Source: a virus
Lineage: Duplodnaviria > Heunggongvirae > Uroviricota > Caudoviricetes
Reading direction: 5' to 3' (one strand)
IMG/VR virus record: IMGVR_UViG_2585427741_000003
Length of the DNA: 20,949 bases
Part shown: in pieces, positions 344 through 7,569 of the stretch
Position numbering within the stretch: position 1 is the stretch's first letter
Layout of the letters: the number at the start of each line of letters is the position of its first letter
Notes under the pieces: model-generated
The model's input: the letters and a program-made list of their open reading frames with translations, nothing else
Databases searched by the model: none
What the model was told of the DNA's origin: nothing
Translations under genes and position numbers: made by a program

Positions 344-1201
344 ATGAGCACCATCCTGAAATGGGCAGGTAATAAAACTGCCATTATGTCCGAACTGAAA
401 AAACATCTTCCTGCTGGCCCGCGACTGGTTGAACCTTTCGCGGGTTCCTGTGCTGTGATGATGGAGACGGATTACCCCAGCTATCTTGTTGCGGATATTA
501 ATCCTGATTTAATCAACCTCTATAAAAAGGTTGCTGCTGATTGTGAATCGTTTATATCTCGCGCCAGAGTTTTTTTTGAGATCGCAAACAGGGAGGTGGC
601 TTATTACAACATAAGGCAGGAGTTTAATTACTCAACTGAAATTACTGATTTCATGAAAGCGGTATATTTCCTGTATCTAAATCGTCACGGTTACCGTGGT
701 TTATGTCGCTATAACAAGAGCGGGCATTTCAACATTCCCTACGGTAATTATAAAAATCCGTATTTCCCTGAAAAAGAAATTCGCGCATTTGCAGAAAAAG
801 CCCAGCGGGCAACGTTTATCTGCGCCAGCTTTGATGAAACGCTGGCGATGTTGAAAGCGGGGGATGTGGTGTATTGCGATCCGCCGTATGACGGTACGTT
901 TTCCGGCTATCACACTGACGGCTTCACTGAAGATGACCAGTATCACCTGGCATCTGTTCTTGAACATCGATCATCAGAAGGTCATCCGGTCATTGTTTCT
1001 AACAGTGACACATCCCTGATCCGTTCGCTGTATCGCAATTTCACTCACCACTACATCAAGGCAAAACGCAGCATCGGCGTGTCAGCTGGCGAGAGTAAAT
1101 CTGCAACAGAAATCATTGCTGTTTCCGGGCCGCGCTGCTGGATGGGATTTGATCCTTCGCGTGGCGTGGATAGTTCTGCTGTGTACGAGGTGCGTGTATG
1201 A
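344..1201 (+). CDS. DNA N6-adenine methyltransferase, Dam (D12 class) family
   Basis: 285 aa; N-terminal SAM-binding KWAGNK...EPFAGS signature and catalytic DPPY motif (CDPPYDGTF). RBS CAGGAGG lies 6-12 nt upstream of the ATG. Stop overlaps the start of the next gene (ATGA at 1198-1201). Confidence 0.9.
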
Positions 1202-3612
1202 GTAATGACGATATGAGCAACTCTAGCGGCTTTAACGAGGCTGCCGCAGCATTTTCATGGAACGGCCCGAAAAAGGCCATTAACCCTTATCTGGAACCGG
1301 AGGAAGTTGCGCCGGAGTCTGCACTTTCAAACATGATCACTCTGTACGCTGCCGATAACGAGCAGGAACAGCAGCGCCGCGAGGCACTGAGTGATCAGGT
1401 CTGGGAACGTTATTTCTTTAATGAATCCCGTGATCCTGTCCAGCGCGAAATGGAGCAGGATAAGCTCATTAGCCGGGCAAAGCTGGCGCATGAGCAGCAG
1501 CGTTTTGACCCGGACATGGTCATTCTGTCGGACGTCAGCGCCCAGCCTACCCACATCAGCAAGCCGCTGATGCAACGTATCGAATACTTCAGCAGCCTGG
1601 GCAGGCCAAAGGCTTATTCCCGCTATTTGCGTGAGACGATTAAGCCATGTCTGGAGCGACTGGAGTATGTACGCGACAGTCAGCTATCCGCTTCTTTCCG
1701 TTTTATGGCAAGCCATCAAGGGCTTGAGGGCCTGCTGATCCTGCCTGAAATGAGTCAGGATCAGGTAAAACGCCTGTCCACCCTGGTAGCAGCGCATATG
1801 AGCATGTGTCTTGAGGCCGCTTGTGGTGATTTGTATGCCACCGATGACGTTAAGCCAGAAGAAATCCGCAAGACATGGGAAAAGGTGGCAGCGGAAACCC
1901 TGCGTCTGGATGTTATCCCGCCTGCGTTTGAGAAACTCCGCCGGAAAAGAAACCGCCGCAAACCTGTGCCCTATGAACTCATACCGGGTTCGCTGGCACG
2001 TATGCTTTGCGCCGACTGGTGGTACCGGAAATTATGGAAGATGCGTTGCGAATGGCGGGAAGAGCAGTTGCGTGCTGCCTGTCTGGTCAGCAAAAAAGCA
2101 TCTCCCTATGTCAGCTATGAAGCAGTGACACATAAACGTGAGCAGCGCCGCAAGTCGCTGGAGTTTTTCCGTTCTCATGAACTGGTGAACGAAGACGGCG
2201 ACACGCTGGATATGGAAGATGTGGTAAACGCCAGCAGCAGCAACCCGGCGCATCGCCGCAATGAGATGATGGCCTGTGTTAAAGGTCTGGAGCTTATCGC
2301 AGAAATGCGTGGTGACTGCGCCGTTTTCTACACTATCACCTGTCCGTCACGTTTCCATTCCACGCTCAACAACGGCAGACCCAACCCGACCTGGACAAAT
2401 GCGACGGTAAGACAAAGCAGCGATTATCTGGTCGGCATGTTTGCTGCATTTCGTAAGGCGATGCACAAAGCCGGGTTGCGCTGGTATGGCGTGCGGGTGG
2501 CTGAGCCGCACCATGACGGTACTGTGCACTGGCATCTCATGTGTTTCATGCGCAAAAAAGACCGCCGCGCTATTACTGCATTGTTGCGTAAGTTTGCCAT
2601 CCGTGAAGACCGCGAGGAACTGGGCAATAACACGGGGCCACGCTTTAAGTCTGAGCTGATAAACCCGCGCAAAGGAACGCCAACAAGCTACATCGCGAAA
2701 TACATCAGTAAGAACATTGACGGACGTGGTCTGGCTGGCGAGATCAGCAAGGAAACGGGTAAATCCCTGCGTGATAACGCCGAATACGTTAATGCCTGGG
2801 CGTCTCTGCATCGTGTTCAGCAGTTCCGCTTCTTTGGTATTCCGGGGCGTCAGGCGTACCGTGAACTTCGCTTGCTGGCTGGTCAGGCGGCAAGGCAACA
2901 GGGTGACAAAAAAGCAGGTGCGCCGGTACTGGATGACCCGCGCCTTGATGCCATCCTGGCTGCCGCTGATGCTGGCTGTTTTGCCACCTACATCATGAAG
3001 CAGGGCGGCGTACTGGTTCCCCGCAAATATCACCTTATCAGAACAGCTTATGAAATTAACGAAGAGCCGACCGCTTATGGCGATCACGGTATTCGTATTT
3101 ATGGCATCTGGTCACCCATTGTACAGGGCAAGATCTGCACTCATGCAATGAAATGGAAAATGGTTCGTAAGGCCGTTGACGTTCAGGAGGCGGCAGCCGA
3201 CCAGGGCGCTTGCGCCCCTTGGACTCGTGGCAATAACTGTCCCCTTGCTGAAAATTTGAACCAACAAGGGAAAGACAAATCAGCTGATGGGGACTCCAGA
3301 ACGGATATTACCCGTATGAATGACAAGGAGTTGCACGATTACCTGCACAGTATGAGCAAAAAAGAGCGCCGGGAACTGGCTGCAAGGTTACGCCAGGTGA
3401 AACCGAAACGGCGTAAAGACTACAAACAGCGAATTACAGACCATCAGCGACTGCAGCTCGTGTATGAGCTGAAGTCCAGAGGATTTGATGGCAGCGAGAA
3501 AGAGGTCGATTTACTCCTTCGCGGAGGCAGTATTCCGTCAGGAGCAGGCCTGCGTATCTTCTATCGGAACCAGCGTTTGCAGGAAGATGATCAGTGGCGG
3601 AACCTGTATTAA
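1198..3612 (+). CDS. A: Rolling-circle replication initiator endonuclease, P2 gpA-like
   Basis: 804 aa; metal-binding [11 protein letters not shown] (HxH-type motif) and catalytic tyrosine region [12 protein letters not shown] typical of the phage GPA replication-initiator family. Size is close to P2 gpA (about 760 aa, recalled). Confidence 0.88.
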
Positions 3613-3704
3613 TTACGCGGGTTAACAATTCGTGCTCTTAATAATACCAGGCATATCAGGCTGATGAACGTAAAAAAACGTTTTACATCAGTAAGATTAT
3701 TATA

Positions 3705-3724
3705 TACTGTAAATATAAACAGTG
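3705..3724 (+). promoter_or_regulatory. Putative LexA (SOS) box
   Basis: TACTGTAAATATAAACAGTG has the form CTGT-N8-ACAG with an AT-rich spacer, close to the consensus TACTGTATATATATACAGTA. It sits about 40 bp upstream of the RBS/ATG at 3766 and overlaps a candidate -10 TATACT. Confidence 0.6.
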
Positions 3725-3765
3725 GTTATACATACAGTATTGCGTGTGGTGTCATAGGAGGAAAG

Positions 3766-3954
3766 ATGCAGGACTATTTTTTGGAGTCTTTGAAGCTCCA
3801 GCGCATTGATTTTTTTCTTAAGCTTGTAGCGGCTAGTGAGTGTAGTGATGAAGAGAAGGGGCTGGCTCTGCAGTGGGTTTCTGAATTGACTGATGAACTC
3901 ATGGCAAAAATCAGAACCCACGAATACAACCGCTCAATGGATGTCATCAGCTGA
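3766..3954 (+). CDS. Hypothetical small protein (62 aa), first gene of the SOS-box unit; possible Tum-like antirepressor (speculative)
   Basis: ATG at 3766 is preceded by a strong RBS AGGAGG (3756-3761). The longer version in the ORF track (start 3664) would read through the LexA box. No family recognised from sequence alone. Confidence 0.45.
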   Translation: MQDYFLESLKLQRIDFFLKLVAASECSDEEKGLALQWVSELTDELMAKIRTHEYNRSMDVIS

Positions 3955-3964
3955 GGTGACTTTT

Positions 3965-4198
3965 ATGCGCATTGAAATAATGATCGATAAAGAGCAGAAG
4001 ATTAGCCAGTCTACCCTGGACGCCCTTGAATCCGAGCTTTACCGCAATCTGCGCCCCCTGTATCCCAAAACGGTAATTCGCATTCGCAAAGGTAGCTCTA
4101 ACGGTGTGGAACTAACCGGACTGCAACTGGACGAAGAAAGAAAACAAGTGATGAAAATTATGCAGAAGGTGTGGGAAGACGACAGCTGGCTGCATTAA
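3965..4198 (+). CDS. DinI-family protein (DNA-damage-inducible protein I-like)
   Basis: 77 aa, MRIEIMIDKEQKISQSTLDALESELYRNL...KQVMKIMQKVWEDDSWLH. The MRIE start, the central LDAL..EL block and the C-terminal acidic W-containing tail match the recalled DinI/MsgA pattern. RBS GAGGTGA lies upstream. Confidence 0.7.
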   Translation: MRIEIMIDKEQKISQSTLDALESELYRNLRPLYPKTVIRIRKGSSNGVELTGLQLDEERKQVMKIMQKVWEDDSWLH

Positions 4199-4333
4199 GA
4201 AACGTTGCTGGCGTCTGAACTTGCTTCTGGCGTCAGCAAGGTTGAACAACGAGCCCTTGCGAGGCGTTAGCTCTGTAGTGCATGTCTATGCCGCATGAGA
4301 TCGCATGATCGTTTGAGGATCGTTTTTGCTAAG

Positions 4334-4357
4334 GCCCGCCAGAACTGGCGGGCTTTT
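4334..4357 (+). terminator. Rho-independent terminator candidate
   Basis: GC-rich inverted repeat GCCCGCCAG / CTGGCGGGC followed by TTTT, downstream of the DinI-like gene. Confidence 0.6.
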
Positions 4358-4402
4358 GCGTAGATCATGCAGGTGCATGAAAACCACTACATAAAGCGGG
4401 CA

Positions 4403-4421
4403 GGCGTGGCGGGGATACGAG
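4403..4421. other. Putative cos (cohesive-end) site of the P2/186 type
   Basis: GGCGTGGCGGGGATACGAG: the first 13 nt match the recalled 186 cohesive end (GGCGTGGCGGGGA...) and resemble P2 cos (GGCGAGGCGGGGA...). Position fits the conserved order: replication region, cos, portal. Confidence 0.4.
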
Positions 4422-4434
4422 CGCGCGCAGCGGG

Positions 4435-4463
4435 TGGAAACTCAGATTTGAATGTTGTATAAA
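4435..4463 (+). promoter_or_regulatory. Candidate sigma70 promoter for the retron operon
   Basis: TGGAAA (4435-4440), 17-bp spacer, TATAAA (4458-4463), about 30 bp upstream of the effector ATG. Sequence match only. Confidence 0.35.
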
Positions 4464-4492
4464 AGATGGGATCATTCTGAGGAAAAGTGGAT

Positions 4493-5398
4493 ATGAAAAA
4501 GAAAACTATTCCGGAGTTGCAGAAGCAAAATCTGGCAAATTTAATTAAAAGTCGGCTTTTTCAACAGAAAAATAAAAATAAAGTTACTGTTTTCCTTTGC
4601 GGGGGCGATTTGAATGATCCGTTTTTTTGTAGAAATAAAGTTAAAAGAGTGTTGGAAACACATCCCAAAATAGAAATATTCTATCCTGAGGAGTTGTTTG
4701 ATGAGCTTTTGTATGGACAAGGTCAGCATAGTCTTTTAAGTTTGGAGAATATTTTAGCTGATTCAGTCGATGTTATTATTATTATTCCTGAAAGCCCAGG
4801 GTCTTTCGCTGAATTGGGCGCATTTTCAAATAATGAAAAACTGTGCAAAAAAATGATATGTCTTCAGGATGACAAATTCAAACTTAAAAAAAGCTTTCTT
4901 AATTATGGGCCTATAAAACTGCTTCGGCGTGCTAATAGCGGTGCAGTATTGCGAGGAGATTTGTCGACTCTTGAAAGCTTGAGTACAGGTAAAGCTTTTT
5001 ATAATAGAATTATAAAAAGTATTAATGACATCAAAAAAAATAACCCAGTTAATCACTCAATAGATAATATTCTTCACGCTCGGCGTTTTATACTGCCATG
5101 TATATATTTGATGGATGGTATAGATAATATACTTCTATATGAGCTATTACATTTGGTGACTAAGAAAGATGCTATTCTTTGTGAAATTATCGTTAAGTCT
5201 GTTATTTCAAGCTTGATTAAAGAGTCAATAATTAGGCGTTCAGTTCAAGGATACCATATTACAGAAATTGGTATGCAATACGTTCTTGAGCATTTTGATC
5301 GAAAGGCTTTGGACAATCTACGACTGGATATGATGAACTTCGAAAATCGTGGTAAAACAATACTCCACTATGATAGGATGCGTTTTGCGCACCCTTAG
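4493..5398 (+). CDS. Retron effector candidate: nucleoside 2-deoxyribosyltransferase-like (NDT-like) N-terminal domain plus C-terminal helical, possibly DNA-binding, domain
   Basis: 301 aa from ATG 4493 (RBS GAGGAAA upstream; the ORF track begins two codons earlier at GTG 4487). Rossmann-like start KVTVFLCGG and DVIIIIPESPGSFAELGAF block with a candidate catalytic Glu in SFAELG. Low-GC codon usage unlike the flanking phage genes. Stop codon TAG (5396-5398) lies inside retron repeat a1. Confidence 0.65.
   Translation: MKKKTIPELQKQNLANLIKSRLFQQKNKNKVTVFLCGGDLNDPFFCRNKVKRVLETHPKIEIFYPEELFDELLYGQGQHSLLSLENILADSVDVIIIIPESPGSFAELGAFSNNEKLCKKMICLQDDKFKLKKSFLNYGPIKLLRRANSGAVLRGDLSTLESLSTGKAFYNRIIKSINDIKKNNPVNHSIDNILHARRFILPCIYLMDGIDNILLYELLHLVTKKDAILCEIIVKSVISSLIKESIIRRSVQGYHITEIGMQYVLEHFDRKALDNLRLDMMNFENRGKTILHYDRMRFAHP
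5387..5397 (+). repeat. Retron inverted repeat a1
   Basis: GCGCACCCTTA; exact reverse complement of 5535-5545. Confidence 0.8.
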
Positions 5399-5534
5399 CG
5401 AGTGGCTTCTCCGGAAGTTCACTGGACAGTGTTTCGCTGTCCTACATACAATCTGAAGTTTTACCAGTTCCCTCATTGAAAGGAGAACATCTCCCGATGT
5501 TCTCCTTTCACTTCGGAATCTGATTTTTATGACG

Positions 5535-5545
5535 TAAGGGTGCGC
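5535..5545 (+). repeat. Retron inverted repeat a2
   Basis: TAAGGGTGCGC; exact reverse complement of 5387-5397; ends 2 nt before the RT start codon. Confidence 0.8.
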
Positions 5546-5547
5546 TC

Positions 5548-6522
5548 ATGACTTCCGCAACACCATCTCAGGTTTTTCGCTTACGCAATCTTGGATTGCC
5601 TGTTATGTCCTCTTTAGAGGATATGTCTAGAGAAATGCGTTTATCAGTAGACATACTCCGGTTGTACATTTATCGTGCTGACAAATACTATAAGGTTTAT
5701 TCGTTGCCAAAAAGAGATGGCAAGAGATCCCGCATCATTTCACAGCCATCACGTGAGCTGAAGGCATTGCAAGCTTGGGTGTTAAGAAACATCCTTGATA
5801 AGTTACATTCATCCCCATTTTCCAAAGGCTTTGAAAAAGGGCAATCAATATTAAATAATGCCAGCCCACATGTAGGAGCTAACTATGTATTAAATATTGA
5901 TTTAGAAGATTGTTTTAATACTATTCTGATAGAGAAAATCTATACTGTTTTTCATTCTCTGGGGTATAACTCTACTATTTCTAATGCTTTAGCAAGATTG
6001 TGTTCATTTAATGGTTCGCTACCTCAAGGTGCACCATCTTCTCCAAAGATTGCGAATCTTGTTTTAACTAAATTAGATTATAGAATACATGGATATGCAG
6101 GTAGTAAGGGGATCGTATTTACTCGATATGCCGATGATTTGACTTTATCTGCTCAATCTTTAAAAAAAATACTTAAAGCTAAGTCATTTGTATGCTCTAT
6201 AATACCAAGTGAATCTTTGAAGGTTAATTATAATAAAGTTGCGATTCATGGCCCCAAAGCAAGGAAGGAGGTTACTGGGCTCGTTTTATCTATTGATAAT
6301 GTTGGAGTTGGCAGAATACGTTATCGCGAAATTAGAAGTAAGATCCATTATCTGGCGGTAAAAAGAAATTCTGATTTCGAACATGTTAAAGGACTTATTG
6401 CGTTTGTTAAAAGTGTAGACAAGAAAAACTATAGAAAATTGATGACTTTCTCAAATAAAATGTCTGAAGCATATGGGGTTGATCTAAGTGTTCTTTTTCC
6501 TAAAAACAAAAAGGCCATTTAA
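5548..6522 (+). CDS. ret: Retron-type reverse transcriptase
   Basis: 324 aa; RT motifs: PKRDGKRSRIISQP (motif 1/2), NASPH (retron NAxxH), LPQGAPSSPKIANL (motif 4), RYADDL (catalytic YADD), and the retron-specific VTG (EVTGLVL). Size is typical of Ec86/Ec73-class RTs. Low-GC composition. Confidence 0.92.
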   Translation: MTSATPSQVFRLRNLGLPVMSSLEDMSREMRLSVDILRLYIYRADKYYKVYSLPKRDGKRSRIISQPSRELKALQAWVLRNILDKLHSSPFSKGFEKGQSILNNASPHVGANYVLNIDLEDCFNTILIEKIYTVFHSLGYNSTISNALARLCSFNGSLPQGAPSSPKIANLVLTKLDYRIHGYAGSKGIVFTRYADDLTLSAQSLKKILKAKSFVCSIIPSESLKVNYNKVAIHGPKARKEVTGLVLSIDNVGVGRIRYREIRSKIHYLAVKRNSDFEHVKGLIAFVKSVDKKNYRKLMTFSNKMSEAYGVDLSVLFPKNKKAI

Positions 6523-6532
6523 TGGCCTTTTT
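6508..6532. terminator. Palindromic A/T-flanked hairpin between convergent RT and portal genes (possible bidirectional terminator)
   Basis: AAAAAGGCCATTTAATGGCCTTTTT is a perfect 25-nt palindrome. It overlaps the RT stop codon and ends 5 nt before the portal gene stop (6538-6540, minus strand). Short GC stem, so moderate confidence. Confidence 0.45.
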
Positions 6533-6537
6533 GTTTA

Positions 6538-7569
6538 TTAGGTAATTGAATAACTCACGAAATTAATAACTTCTTCATTTATCCATTCGTTCAGCTCTTC
6601 TAGTCTTTTTTGTAAAGGGATGAGTTCATTCCTCACAAAAACATTAGCAGCTTTCTCTACATCCCCAAACCCTCCAACATTATTAGGCATAATCCCCATC
6701 ATTTGCGGTGGCACACGATGCGCCGCCATCATGTCATCCCGGCTCACGTTCTTGATGTTCAGAAACTCATCCTTCGCCGCGACCTCTGACAACGGGATAA
6801 TCTGAAGCCCGTCCTTTTTGCCGTTAGGCGAGTACATAAACAGGTTGCGGAAGTTACCCGGTCCTTTGGCGCTTTTCATCGCGTTGCGGAGGTTGTTCAC
6901 GTCCTCCTGGTTCTGCGCGGCATCGGTCATGTACATGATGAAGCCAGCATGACTGCCGTTTATGTAATACTTTCGACGGAACAGCGTGGCGGACTCATTG
7001 AGCAGGGCGGACGGAATAGCAGAAAGATAGCCGGGCAGGCCATAGATCTCCTGATTTATGTCCGGTTCCATCAGATGGAAAATGCTGCCTTTCGTGAACT
7101 GATACGGTTGCGTGGTCATGCCGTATTGCACAAACCAGTAGGTATCTAGGTCTAATCCACGTCGGGTGTATTTTGCCAGCGCAGGCTCAAGAGCGATAAC
7201 TTCACCGAATCGGTTCGTGCGTTTCTCCAGGTAGGCGTTACCAAATACCAGATAGTCCTGCACAAAACGTGAAAAAGCCTGCTGGCTGAGCAGCGGGTGA
7301 GGGATGTAGGTACTGGTCAGAATGTTGCACTTTACTGCAATCGGGGAACTGTGATGCACAGCAGCGCGGAAGGTGCGCGCCAGTCCGTCAAAGCTGACGG
7401 GAGGCTCATACCAGCGATCTGTCTGTACGCATTCCACATAGTCCAGCAGTTCGCGGCGGTCAAGTACGGGAATGGGATCACCGAAGCTGAATGCTTCGGC
7501 TGTAGTCTGGCTTTTGAGCTGGCTCTGTTTCGTCGCCGCAGCGCGGTTCTTCTTACTCTTTCCCATCAA
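6538..7569 (-). CDS. Q: Portal protein, P2 gpQ-like
   Basis: 343 aa (P2 Q about 344 aa, recalled); position and orientation (leftward, next to P) match the P2/186 map. Start overlaps the stop of P (ATGA). Confidence 0.85.
   Translation of the reverse strand: MMGKSKKNRAAATKQSQLKSQTTAEAFSFGDPIPVLDRRELLDYVECVQTDRWYEPPVSFDGLARTFRAAVHHSSPIAVKCNILTSTYIPHPLLSQQAFSRFVQDYLVFGNAYLEKRTNRFGEVIALEPALAKYTRRGLDLDTYWFVQYGMTTQPYQFTKGSIFHLMEPDINQEIYGLPGYLSAIPSALLNESATLFRRKYYINGSHAGFIMYMTDAAQNQEDVNNLRNAMKSAKGPGNFRNLFMYSPNGKKDGLQIIPLSEVAAKDEFLNIKNVSRDDMMAAHRVPPQMMGIMPNNVGGFGDVEKAANVFVRNELIPLQKRLEELNEWINEEVINFVSYSIT

What the first reader, a model, noticed from the sequence alone, without database searches (positions are those of the whole stretch)
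3705..4198. SOS-controlled two-gene unit next to cos, resembling the phage 186 tum-dinI arrangement
A well-formed LexA box (CTGT-N8-ACAG) overlaps a candidate promoter, followed by a 62-codon ORF with a strong RBS and then a DinI-family gene, then a terminator. In coliphage 186 a LexA-repressed operon near the right genome end encodes the Tum antirepressor and a DinI-like protein (from memory). If the 62-aa protein is an antirepressor, the prophage would be SOS-inducible by antirepression rather than by repressor cleavage. The small protein has no recognisable family from sequence, so this is speculative.
Basis: partly seen in the sequence, partly recalled or inferred. Interest (0 to 1): 0.45.

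Follow-up and report, generated by a model that had tools for sequence, protein, structure and literature searches.

The report
Split tum antirepressor–dinI SOS operon
This is the DNA-damage switch of a P2/186-like prophage: a LexA-repressed promoter drives a 62-residue antirepressor (the split "TumA" form of phage 186 Tum) and a DinI homologue, an arrangement already described for Fels-2 and PsP3 and tested genetically in E. coli HS, so the finding is correct but ordinary.

Summary
Window 3682-4198 holds a sigma-70 promoter overlapped by a strong LexA box, a 62-codon ORF with an AGGAGG ribosome-binding site, and a DinI-family gene. It lies between replication gene A and cos of a Peduoviridae (186/Fels-2-like) prophage.

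The 62-aa protein is not an orphan. It is 98.4% identical to Fels-2 STM2728 and to the E. coli HS gene that Ortiz de Ora et al. (2025) deleted as "tum"; their primers match the window exactly. That deletion, like lexA(Ind-), abolished mitomycin-C induction. Profile comparison aligns residues 3-44 with residues 3-44 of 186 Tum (E 4.5e-8). The DinI gene matches Tum's C-terminal half (41% identity). The locus is therefore the split tumA/tumB form of tum, already noted for Fels-2 and PsP3.

Additions from this work:
- The operator is a colicin-type pair of overlapping LexA boxes.
- TumA is nearly invariant across prophages whose CI repressors differ widely.
- A covarying hairpin follows dinI.

Databases still call the protein "hypothetical". 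Novelty: already known.

The parts
3682..3687 (+). -35 hexamer TTTACA of the tum promoter (counterpart of 186 p95)
   Evidence: Lies 17 nt upstream of TACTGT. A TT[TGC]A[CA]A hexamer at 16-18 nt is conserved in 31 of 37 orthologous loci. Same layout as the annotated 186 p95 promoter. Inferred, not mapped.
3705..3710 (+). -10 hexamer TACTGT, lying inside LexA box 1
   Evidence: By analogy with the annotated -10 of 186 p95, also TACTGT within the LexA site. Not detected by the consensus scanner.
3705..3724 (+). LexA box 1, TACTGTAAATATAAACAGTG (core CTGT-N8-ACAG at 3707-3722)
   Evidence: Conserved in 35 of 37 loci. By my count 17/20 to the consensus, which I quote from memory.
3720..3739 (+). 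LexA box 2, CAGTGGTTATACATACAGTA (core GTGG-N8-ACAG at 3722-3737), overlapping the core of box 1 by one base
   Evidence: By my count window 3705-3741 is 31/37 identical to the double LexA operator upstream of the ColE1 colicin E1 gene. An NTG-N10-CAG core in this register is present in 23 of 37 loci. Absent from 186 and PsP3. Binding of a second LexA dimer is inferred.
3756..3761 (+). Ribosome-binding site AGGAGG for tumA
   Evidence: Read directly from the sequence. (A/T)AGGAGG is conserved in almost all loci.
3766..3954 (+). tumA: 62-aa antirepressor, homologous to the N-terminal part of 186 Tum and orthologous to Fels-2 STM2728 and to 'tum' of E. coli HS DuoHS
   Evidence: homology. (genetics in the HS orthologue). 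(purifying selection). (predicted helical hairpin, pLDDT 88).
3953..3959 (+). Ribosome-binding site GAGGTGA for dinI, overlapping the tumA stop codon
   Evidence: Read directly from the sequence. It is retained in the HS tum-deletion design.
3965..4198 (+). dinI/tumB: 77-aa DinI-family protein
   Evidence: PF06183 E 6.6e-23. phrog_189. 41% identical to 186 Tum residues 71-145. 78% identical to PsP3 TumB.
4201..4243 (+). Conserved hairpin without a U-tract directly after dinI (3' element of the SOS operon)
   Evidence: RNA MFE -23.5 kcal/mol, z -2.5. 9 of 17 pairs show compensatory double changes across 18 loci, including 186 and PsP3. Function unknown.
4240..4271 (+). Conserved motif GGTTGAACAACGAG-N-GCGAGGCGTTAG at the boundary with variable cargo
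   Evidence: Nearly invariant in alignment A3. Sequences diverge right after it. Also present in 186 after orf97.
4331..4357 (+). Terminator-like hairpin with a short U-run, the probable end of the tum transcript just before cos
   Evidence: MFE -27.6 kcal/mol, z -5.1, 11-bp stem followed by UUUU. Termination itself is inferred.
4403..4421 (.). Approximate cos cohesive-end region (GGCGTGGCGGGGATACGAG)
   Evidence: Window 4337-4402 aligns to the last bases of the 186 linear genome record. The 19-nt length is from memory of P2/186 cos.

Best explanation
Window 3682-4357 is the SOS operon of a 186/Fels-2-like (Peduoviridae) prophage, in the split 'tumA-tumB' form.

Proposed mechanism:
1. In a lysogen, LexA occupies an operator that covers the -10 region and the start of the transcript. 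Here the operator is probably two overlapping boxes, as at colicin promoters, and it keeps the promoter off.
2. DNA damage activates RecA, LexA cleaves itself, and the promoter fires.
3. The first product is the 62-aa acidic helical-hairpin protein TumA. It inactivates the prophage's 186-family CI repressor by binding it, not by cleaving it. The early lytic promoter is then derepressed and the prophage enters lytic growth.
4. The second product, DinI/TumB, is a RecA-filament-binding modulator that tunes the SOS signal and is not needed for antirepression.
5. Transcription probably ends at the hairpin just before cos.

What is shown: the sequence anatomy; homology to Tum and DinI; conservation; and, in the 98.4%-identical E. 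coli HS orthologue, the requirement of the small gene and of cleavable LexA for induction.

What is inferred: LexA binding here, TumA-CI binding, and the role of DinI.
For: - Anatomy.
- Promoter and LexA site have the same architecture as annotated 186 p95.
- Box 1 is conserved in 35 of 37 loci across about 20 genera. The -35 is conserved in 31 of 37.
- The double operator is 31/37 identical (my count) to the ColE1 cea operator. Colicin double boxes bind two LexA dimers (PMC2994835).
- TumA homology to the Tum N-terminus: hhalign E 4.5e-8 in the same register, BLASTP of a family member E 7e-11, and PHROG cross-hits.
- DinI: Pfam E 6.6e-23 and 41% identity to the Tum C-terminal half.
- PsP3 is annotated tumA ('UV induction of prophage') plus tumB.
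- Lemire et al. 2011 state that Fels-2 and PSP3 have tum split by a stop codon, and that the upstream PSP3 gene carries the antirepressor activity.
- Genetics: the in-frame tum deletion and lexA(Ind-) in E. coli HS DuoHS abolish mitomycin-C-induced lysis. The primers delimit exactly the orthologue of window 3766-3954 and leave dinI intact.
- 186 Tum acts by sequestering CI (PMC7708051).
- A 186-family CI gene lies upstream of tumA in 30 of the 36 Fels-2-type tumA loci examined. None was found in the other six, at least two of which are short contigs.
- Tum class tracks CI N-terminal-domain class. 29 of 30 Fels-2-type loci have a Fels-2-type domain. Among loci with 186-type Tum, the domain has a median 79% identity to 186 against 42% to Fels-2.
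- Purifying selection on tumA: dN/dS 0.03-0.12.
- TumA occurs without DinI in 13 of 34 loci, so it is the self-sufficient part.
Against: - There are no direct data for this exact sequence: no LexA footprint, no transcript map, no TumA-CI binding assay.
- The window does not include the immunity region, so its own repressor is unseen.
- BLASTP of the 62-aa protein against 186 Tum finds nothing. Homology rests on profiles and intermediates.
- The PSP3 functional statement is a personal communication cited second-hand, and Bunny et al. 2002 could not be read.
- Within the Fels-2 group, TumA identity does not covary with CI identity (Spearman 0.03). One locus, L028 from Pantoea stewartii, pairs a Fels-2-type TumA with a 186-type CI.
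- The HS deletion shows requirement, not mechanism. In the text available to me I did not see complementation described.
- The core LexA motif alone is expected 0.31 times per window by chance.
Confidence: 0.85

Rival explanations
1. The small protein is required for SOS induction but does not work by sequestering CI. It would act on a target conserved across these prophages or in the host, such as another switch protein (Apl/Cox, CII), RNA polymerase, or RecA/LexA itself.
For: The TumA core is nearly invariant. Meanwhile the CI C-terminal domains of the same prophages share only 24-36% identity with the reference prophage CI, and the N-terminal domains 63-92%. There is no fine-scale covariation. 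L028 combines a Fels-2-type TumA with a 186-type CI. The HS genetics show requirement only.
Against: The protein is homologous, in the same register, to the part of 186 Tum that is not DinI, and 186 Tum is established as a CI-binding antirepressor. At class level the Tum type follows the CI N-terminal-domain type. Invariance of TumA is equally explained if it binds the conserved N-terminal domain.
Confidence: 0.1
2. The unit is mainly a host-directed SOS-modulating accessory gene. DinI would be the functional product, and the upstream 62-codon ORF a leader or regulatory ORF with no role in the lysis-lysogeny switch of this particular prophage.
For: DinI homologues are common LexA-controlled accessory genes in prophages such as the Gifsy phages. 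RefSeq annotates the small ORF only as a hypothetical protein.
Against: The small ORF is under strong purifying selection at the protein level. It occurs without DinI in 13 of 34 loci. It is homologous to Tum. Its in-frame deletion, which leaves dinI and its ribosome-binding site in place, abolishes induction in E. coli HS.
Confidence: 0.03
3. The LexA-like sequence is a chance AT-rich palindrome and the operon is not SOS regulated.
For: The CTGT-N8-ACAG core is expected 0.31 times per window. The promoter scanner reported no promoter.
Against: The match extends to 17/20 of the consensus (my count). It is positioned exactly as in 186 p95. It is conserved in 35 of 37 loci while the flanking sequence diverges. 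It forms a colicin-type double operator. lexA(Ind-) blocks induction of the HS prophage.
Confidence: 0.02

Closest known systems
Fels-2 STM2728 / STM2726.1 and the E. coli HS DuoHS 'tum' locus (Felsduovirus-type split tum)
   Same: Same position (A gene, operator, 62-aa gene, dinI). The small protein is 98.4% identical and the DinI 100% identical. The upstream operator is identical or nearly so. The HS gene is required for mitomycin-C induction, and induction needs cleavable LexA.
   Different: The downstream cargo differs. HS and Fels-2 carry another ORF directly after dinI (678 nt in HS, 732 nt in Fels-2). Here dinI runs straight into the conserved hairpin, a terminator and cos, and an St85-family retron lies beyond cos. 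The CI repressors of these prophages differ strongly: Fels-2 and 813R9, whose TumA proteins are 98.4% and 100% identical to the window's, have CI proteins only 41.5% identical.
PsP3 tumA / tumB
   Same: A two-gene split of tum behind a LexA box between gene A and cos. tumB is 78% identical to the window's DinI. tumA is annotated as responsible for UV induction.
   Different: PsP3 TumA belongs to another sub-family (phrog_1993) and is only weakly similar to the window's family (hhalign E 0.004; phrog_1993 E 0.0022). PsP3 has a single LexA box. Its CI is 286 aa and appears on inspection to contain a duplicated N-terminal domain.
Coliphage 186 Tum and the p95 SOS operon
   Same: A LexA-repressed promoter with the -10 inside the box, in the same genomic position. 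The Tum N-terminal region is homologous to the 62-aa protein and the C-terminal half to the DinI gene. Internal starts in 186 tum also yield a free DinI-like product annotated as modulating SOS induction. The same hairpin and motif lie upstream of the final terminator.
   Different: 186 Tum is one fused 146-aa polypeptide. There is a single LexA box. A further gene, orf97 (an exclusion function, with no DinI match), sits in the operon. There is no pairwise BLAST similarity between the 62-aa protein and Tum.
Gifsy-prophage LexA-controlled antirepressors (GfoA, GftA, GfhA) with an adjacent dinI
   Same: Small antirepressors co-transcribed with a dinI homologue from a LexA-repressed promoter. Repressors are not cleaved. 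Antirepressors can act in trans on other prophages.
   Different: The gene order is reversed (dinI first). The phages are lambdoid with different repressor families. I did not compare the sequences.
Colicin operators (for example ColE1 cea)
   Same: Two LexA boxes whose cores overlap by one base, just downstream of the -10. 31/37 identical (my count) to window 3705-3741. Such double boxes bind two LexA dimers and give very tight repression.
   Different: They control a toxin gene on a plasmid, not a prophage switch. LexA occupancy of the second box here is untested.

Membership tests
Tum / TumA antirepressor (N-terminal Tum domain) | Sequence homology to the non-DinI, N-terminal part of 186 Tum | tested here: met
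   hhalign of the 28-sequence family against 186 Tum: probability 94.9%, E 4.5e-8, residues 3-44 to 3-44. Member P0147 against Tum by BLASTP: E 7e-11. 186 Tum hits phrog_698 at E 2.4e-5. Direct BLASTP is negative.
Tum / TumA antirepressor (N-terminal Tum domain) | Expressed from a LexA-repressed promoter whose -10 lies in the LexA site | tested here: met
   Met at the sequence level only: box at 3705-3724, same layout as annotated 186 p95, conserved in 35 of 37 loci. LexA binding itself cannot be tested with these tools.
Tum / TumA antirepressor (N-terminal Tum domain) | Located between replication gene A and cos of a P2/186-like phage | tested here: met
   gpA at 1198-3612 (PF05840, E 1e-127). 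cos at about 4403, from alignment to the 186 genome end. Portal and terminase genes lie downstream.
Tum / TumA antirepressor (N-terminal Tum domain) | The same prophage carries a 186-family CI repressor as the target | tested here: inconclusive
   The immunity region lies outside the window. Relatives with an identical or 98%-identical tumA (strain C2, 813R9, HS, Fels-2) and most other loci (30 of the 36 Fels-2-type tumA loci examined) have a 186-family CI about 5-6 kb upstream.
Tum / TumA antirepressor (N-terminal Tum domain) | Required for SOS induction of the prophage | not testable with these tools
   Published for the 98.4%-identical E. coli HS orthologue: an in-frame tum deletion abolishes mitomycin-C-induced lysis (PMC12055606).
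Tum / TumA antirepressor (N-terminal Tum domain) | Binds CI reversibly and prevents operator binding without cleavage | not testable with these tools
   Established for 186 Tum (Shearwin et al. 1998, as cited). Only class-level association between Tum type and CI N-terminal-domain type could be shown here.
DinI family (PF06183) | Full-length match to the DinI profile above the curated threshold | tested here: met
   81.3 bits against a cut-off of 24.2, E 6.6e-23, profile positions 1-63 of 63. The NCBIfam chromosomal DinI equivalog scores below its cut-off (42.7 against 111), so this is a phage paralogue and not host dinI.
DinI family (PF06183) | Binds RecA filaments and modulates SOS | not testable with these tools
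   Inferred from family membership only. Gifsy dinI deletions had no measurable effect on induction.
Colicin-type double SOS operator | Two LexA boxes whose cores overlap by one base, placed over or after the -10 | tested here: met
   CTGT-N8-ACAG at 3707-3722 and GTGG-N8-ACAG at 3722-3737. 31/37 identical (my count) to the ColE1 operator. The second box is conserved in 23 of 37 loci.
Colicin-type double SOS operator | Cooperative binding of two LexA dimers giving tight or delayed expression | not testable with these tools
   Known for colicins. Untested here.

The most novel reading that the evidence does not exclude
TumA of the Fels-2 group may be a 'master-key' antirepressor. Because its core is nearly invariant across prophages with widely different CI repressors, it would recognise the conserved N-terminal DNA-binding domain of CI rather than the variable oligomerisation domain. 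One induced prophage could then cross-induce heteroimmune P2-like prophages in the same cell. Its colicin-type double LexA operator would hold this trigger back until the SOS response is deep. The covarying hairpin after dinI would be a further, undescribed RNA-level control element of the SOS operon.
Probability: 0.3. Interest if true: 0.45.

Novelty: already known. Interest (0 to 1): 0.15.

Why it matters
Practical value is the main point. The unit is present in 1125 of 5426 complete E. coli genomes and in many other Enterobacterales. Even so, RefSeq calls the 62-aa gene 'hypothetical protein' and PHROGs lists its family (phrog_698), and the sister families phrog_8554, phrog_1993 and phrog_37919, as 'unknown function'. 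Linking these families to Tum/TumA would allow automatic prediction of which P2-like prophages are SOS-inducible by antirepression.

Scientifically the mechanism is textbook for 186, and the orthologous gene has already been knocked out. A specialist would not be surprised. The double LexA operator, the invariance of TumA against diverse CI repressors, and the covarying 3' hairpin are small, testable additions.

Tried and rejected
- Pfam, NCBIfam and PADLOC scans of the 62-aa protein found nothing.
- Direct BLASTP against 186 Tum found nothing. Homology appeared only with profiles and intermediates.
- A PDB sequence search with the family profile found nothing. Foldseek of the AF2 model against PDB returned only generic helical hairpins, none at E <= 0.001. 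The fold does not identify a function.
- Rfam at E <= 1 over 3550-6600 gave nothing in the operon or the hairpin region.
- The sigma-70 scanner found no promoter. The promoter call rests on analogy with 186 p95.
- A fine-scale covariation test of TumA against the CI N- and C-terminal domains within the Fels-2 group showed no correlation (Spearman 0.03 and -0.05). Only the class-level association holds. That association could also reflect common descent of linked genes.
- Bunny, Liu and Roth 2002, the primary source for the split tum in Fels-2, could not be retrieved. A literature search on 'tumA/tumB' returned only irrelevant hits.
- I considered and rejected the idea that the hairpin at 4201-4243 is the operon terminator. 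It has no U-tract, and in several loci a downstream gene starts a few bases after the conserved motif.
- I considered whether the 62-aa ORF might be only the tail of the longer 96-codon ORF starting at 3664. That start lies upstream of the promoter and operator, and the orthologues and the AGGAGG site agree on the ATG at 3766.
Full report
**What is in the sequence**

The window is part of a P2/186-like (Peduoviridae) prophage.
- A Dam-type methylase gene lies at 344-1201.
- The replication gene A lies at 1198-3612 (PF05840, E 1e-127).
- The finding follows, and further on are ORFs in the order of the P2-type portal, terminase and capsid genes seen in the closest phage record.

After gene A the sequence reads as follows.
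- TTTACA at 3682-3687, then 17 nt, then TACTGT at 3705-3710.
- The 20-mer TACTGTAAATATAAACAGTG at 3705-3724.
- AGGAGG at 3756-3761.
- An ATG-initiated 62-codon ORF at 3766-3954.
- GAGGTGA overlapping its stop codon.
- A 77-codon ORF at 3965-4198.

**Is the LexA box more than chance?**

The bare CTGT-N8-ACAG core occurs once in the window. It is expected 0.31 times by chance, so it proves nothing alone. The extended TACTGT-N8-ACAGT form matches with no mismatch. Allowing one mismatch on both strands, only 0.12 matches are expected.

Three further observations make it credible.
- Its layout is that of the annotated, LexA-controlled p95 promoter of coliphage 186. There the -10 hexamer is also TACTGT inside the LexA site, and the -35 hexamer lies 18 nt upstream.
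- In 37 orthologous loci from about 20 genera of Enterobacterales, a CTG-N10-CAG box is present in 35. A -35-like hexamer at 16-18 nt is present in 31. The surrounding sequence diverges.
- Immediately after the first box lies a second, imperfect one: GTGG-N8-ACAG at 3722-3737, sharing one base with the first core. By my count the 37-nt stretch 3705-3741 is 31/37 identical to the double operator in front of the ColE1 colicin E1 gene. I recalled that operator from memory and then confirmed it in the ColE1 record.

[quoted passage not shown] 2010, PMC2994835). The second box is present in 23 of 37 loci. It is absent from 186 and PsP3.

**The small ORF is a real gene and belongs to the Tum family**

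Against orthologues, dN/dS is 0.03-0.12 in the seven comparisons where dS could be estimated. Most substitutions fall at third codon positions. Pfam, NCBIfam and PADLOC have no model for it, but it matches phrog_698 ('unknown function') at E 3.6e-38.

It is 98.4% identical to Fels-2 STM2728, which is followed by a DinI gene annotated as similar to PsP3 TumB. PsP3 is annotated with tumA ('similar to 5' end 186 tum; UV induction of prophage') and tumB ('similar to dinI and 3' end of 186 tum').

Direct BLASTP of the 62-aa protein against 186 Tum finds nothing. Other comparisons do link them.
- A profile of 28 diverse family members aligns residues 3-44 with Tum residues 3-44, at probability 94.9% and E 4.5e-8.
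- One member (P0147) hits Tum residues 5-43 by BLASTP at E 7e-11.
- 186 Tum itself hits phrog_698 (E 2.4e-5), phrog_8554 (E 1.4e-11) and phrog_1993 (E 1e-22), which is PsP3 TumA's own family.

The second ORF is a DinI-family protein (PF06183, E 6.6e-23). It is 41% identical to Tum residues 71-145. The locus is therefore tum divided into its two halves.

**What the literature already says**

Lemire et al. 2011 (PMC3121763) make three relevant statements.
- 186 Tum looks like a fusion of an antirepressor with DinI.
[quoted passage not shown] 2002).
[quoted passage not shown] Christie, personal communication).

Ortiz de Ora et al. 2025 (PMC12055606) studied the P2-like prophage DuoHS of E. coli HS. 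An in-frame tum deletion and a lexA(Ind-) allele each abolished mitomycin-C-induced lysis and the formation of viral foci. Their deletion primers NHR24 and NHR28 match window 3746-3768 and 3952-3974 exactly. In the HS genome they bracket the 62-codon CDS that RefSeq calls 'hypothetical protein'. The design fuses ATG to TGA and leaves dinI and its ribosome-binding site intact. The HS protein differs from the window's at one residue (T51S).

For 186, Tum is an anti-CI factor that sequesters CI after LexA derepression of p95 (PMC7708051).

186 does not have a tum gene followed by a dinI gene. Tum is a single 146-aa protein with a DinI-like C-terminal half. Internal starts also yield free DinI-like products annotated as modulating SOS induction. 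The second gene of the operon, orf97, blocks 186 infection when expressed and gave no DinI match.

**How it most likely works**

1. LexA, probably as two dimers, holds the promoter off.
2. SOS induction releases it.
3. TumA binds the 186-family CI repressor and stops it binding its operators. TumA is predicted to be an acidic two-helix hairpin, with helices at 2-23 and 28-61 and pLDDT 88.
4. DinI/TumB modulates RecA filaments.

The anatomy, the homology and the genetic requirement in the orthologue are shown. LexA binding here, TumA-CI contact and the DinI role are inferred.

**Tests bearing on the target**

A 186-family CI gene lies about 5-6 kb upstream in 30 of the 36 Fels-2-type tumA loci examined. 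None was found in the other six, at least two of which are short contigs.

Within the Fels-2 group the TumA core is almost invariant. Against the reference prophage CI, the C-terminal domains share only 24-36% identity and the N-terminal DNA-binding domains 63-92%. There is no fine covariation (Spearman 0.03). For example, Fels-2 and 813R9 have 98-100% identical TumA proteins but CI proteins only 41.5% identical.

At class level there is an association.
- 29 of 30 Fels-2-type TumA loci have a Fels-2-type CI N-terminal domain. The exception is L028 from Pantoea stewartii.
- Among 69 viral contigs with 186-type Tum, the CI N-terminal domain has a median 79% identity to 186 against 42% to Fels-2.
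- PsP3, with its own TumA class, has an unusual CI that appears on inspection to have a duplicated N-terminal domain.

This fits TumA recognising the conserved N-terminal domain and suggests cross-induction among heteroimmune relatives. Common descent of linked genes could give the same pattern.

TumA occurs without an adjacent DinI in 13 of 34 loci. It is therefore the self-sufficient part.

**Downstream**

The hairpin right after dinI (4201-4243) has no U-tract. It shows compensatory double changes in 9 of 17 pairs across 18 loci, including 186 and PsP3. It is followed by a nearly invariant motif, GGTTGAACAACGAG-N-GCGAGGCGTTAG (4240-4271). After that motif the loci diverge into different cargo. 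In 186 the same element lies after orf97 and before terminator t95b.

A terminator-like hairpin with a short U-run lies at 4331-4357. Window 4337-4402 aligns to the last bases of the 186 genome, placing cos at about 4403. Beyond cos lies a type II-A, St85-family retron.

**Verdict**

What remains of interest:
- An annotation gap. The unit is in 1125 of 5426 complete E. coli genomes, always labelled 'hypothetical protein'.
- The colicin-type double operator.
- The invariance of TumA against diverse CI repressors.
- The covarying 3' hairpin.

Noticed in passing
window 4201-4271 (also L001 8340-8414 in phage 186; L003 about 5556-5625 in PsP3): A hairpin without a U-tract directly after the last gene of the SOS operon. 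9 of 17 base pairs show compensatory double changes across 18 loci. It is followed by a nearly invariant motif, GGTTGAACAACGAG-N-GCGAGGCGTTAG, after which the loci diverge into different cargo genes. There is no Rfam match. It could be a processing or stability element, a partial terminator, or the fixed boundary of a cargo hotspot.
   Followed up: partly
window 3720-3739: A second, imperfect LexA box overlaps the first, giving an operator 31/37 identical (my count) to the ColE1 colicin E1 double SOS operator. It is conserved in 23 of 37 Fels-2-type loci and absent from 186 and PsP3. It predicts tighter or later induction than in 186.
   Followed up: partly
window 4487-6522: A type II-A (St85/Sen2-family) retron lies between cos and the portal gene. 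The NDT-like effector is at 4487-5398 (PADLOC NDT_II-A, E 2.6e-97). The reverse transcriptase is at 5548-6522 (RT_II-A, E 4.9e-123). A perfect 11-nt inverted repeat (5387-5397 / 5535-5545) flanks a long hairpin (5465-5522), which looks like the msr-msd RNA gene placed between effector and RT. Only 3 of 5426 complete E. coli genomes have this cargo at this site with at least 80% coverage.
   Followed up: partly
window 4337-4421: The cos region lies only about 205 nt after dinI, and the retron sits on the far side of it. From memory, this recalls the report that retrons Ec67 and Ec86 replace DNA between cos and a terminator of a 186-like prophage (Dodd and Egan 1996, not checked here).
   Followed up: partly
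loci L004-L041 (CI genes about 5-6 kb upstream of tumA): The CI repressors of prophages sharing a nearly identical TumA are mosaics. The N-terminal DNA-binding domain is conserved (63-92% identity to the reference prophage CI) while the C-terminal domain is very divergent (24-36%). L028 (Pantoea stewartii) combines a Fels-2-type TumA with a 186-type CI. PsP3 CI (286 aa) appears on inspection to contain two tandem N-terminal domains.
   Followed up: partly
window 344-1201: A Dam-family adenine methyltransferase gene (TIGR00571, E 1.3e-96) ends four bases inside the start of replication gene A. It occupies the position that in 186 holds a different 1005-nt ORF, annotated as a phosphoadenosine phosphosulfate reductase. 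The Fels-2 homologue is annotated as similar to the 'retron EC67 DNA adenine methylase'.
   Followed up: no
PHROGs families phrog_698, phrog_8554, phrog_1993, phrog_37919 and the N-terminal half of phrog_189: These families cross-hit each other through 186 Tum and the window protein. They appear to be one TumA / Tum-N superfamily. The first four are labelled 'unknown function', and phrog_189 is labelled only as DinI.
   Followed up: partly
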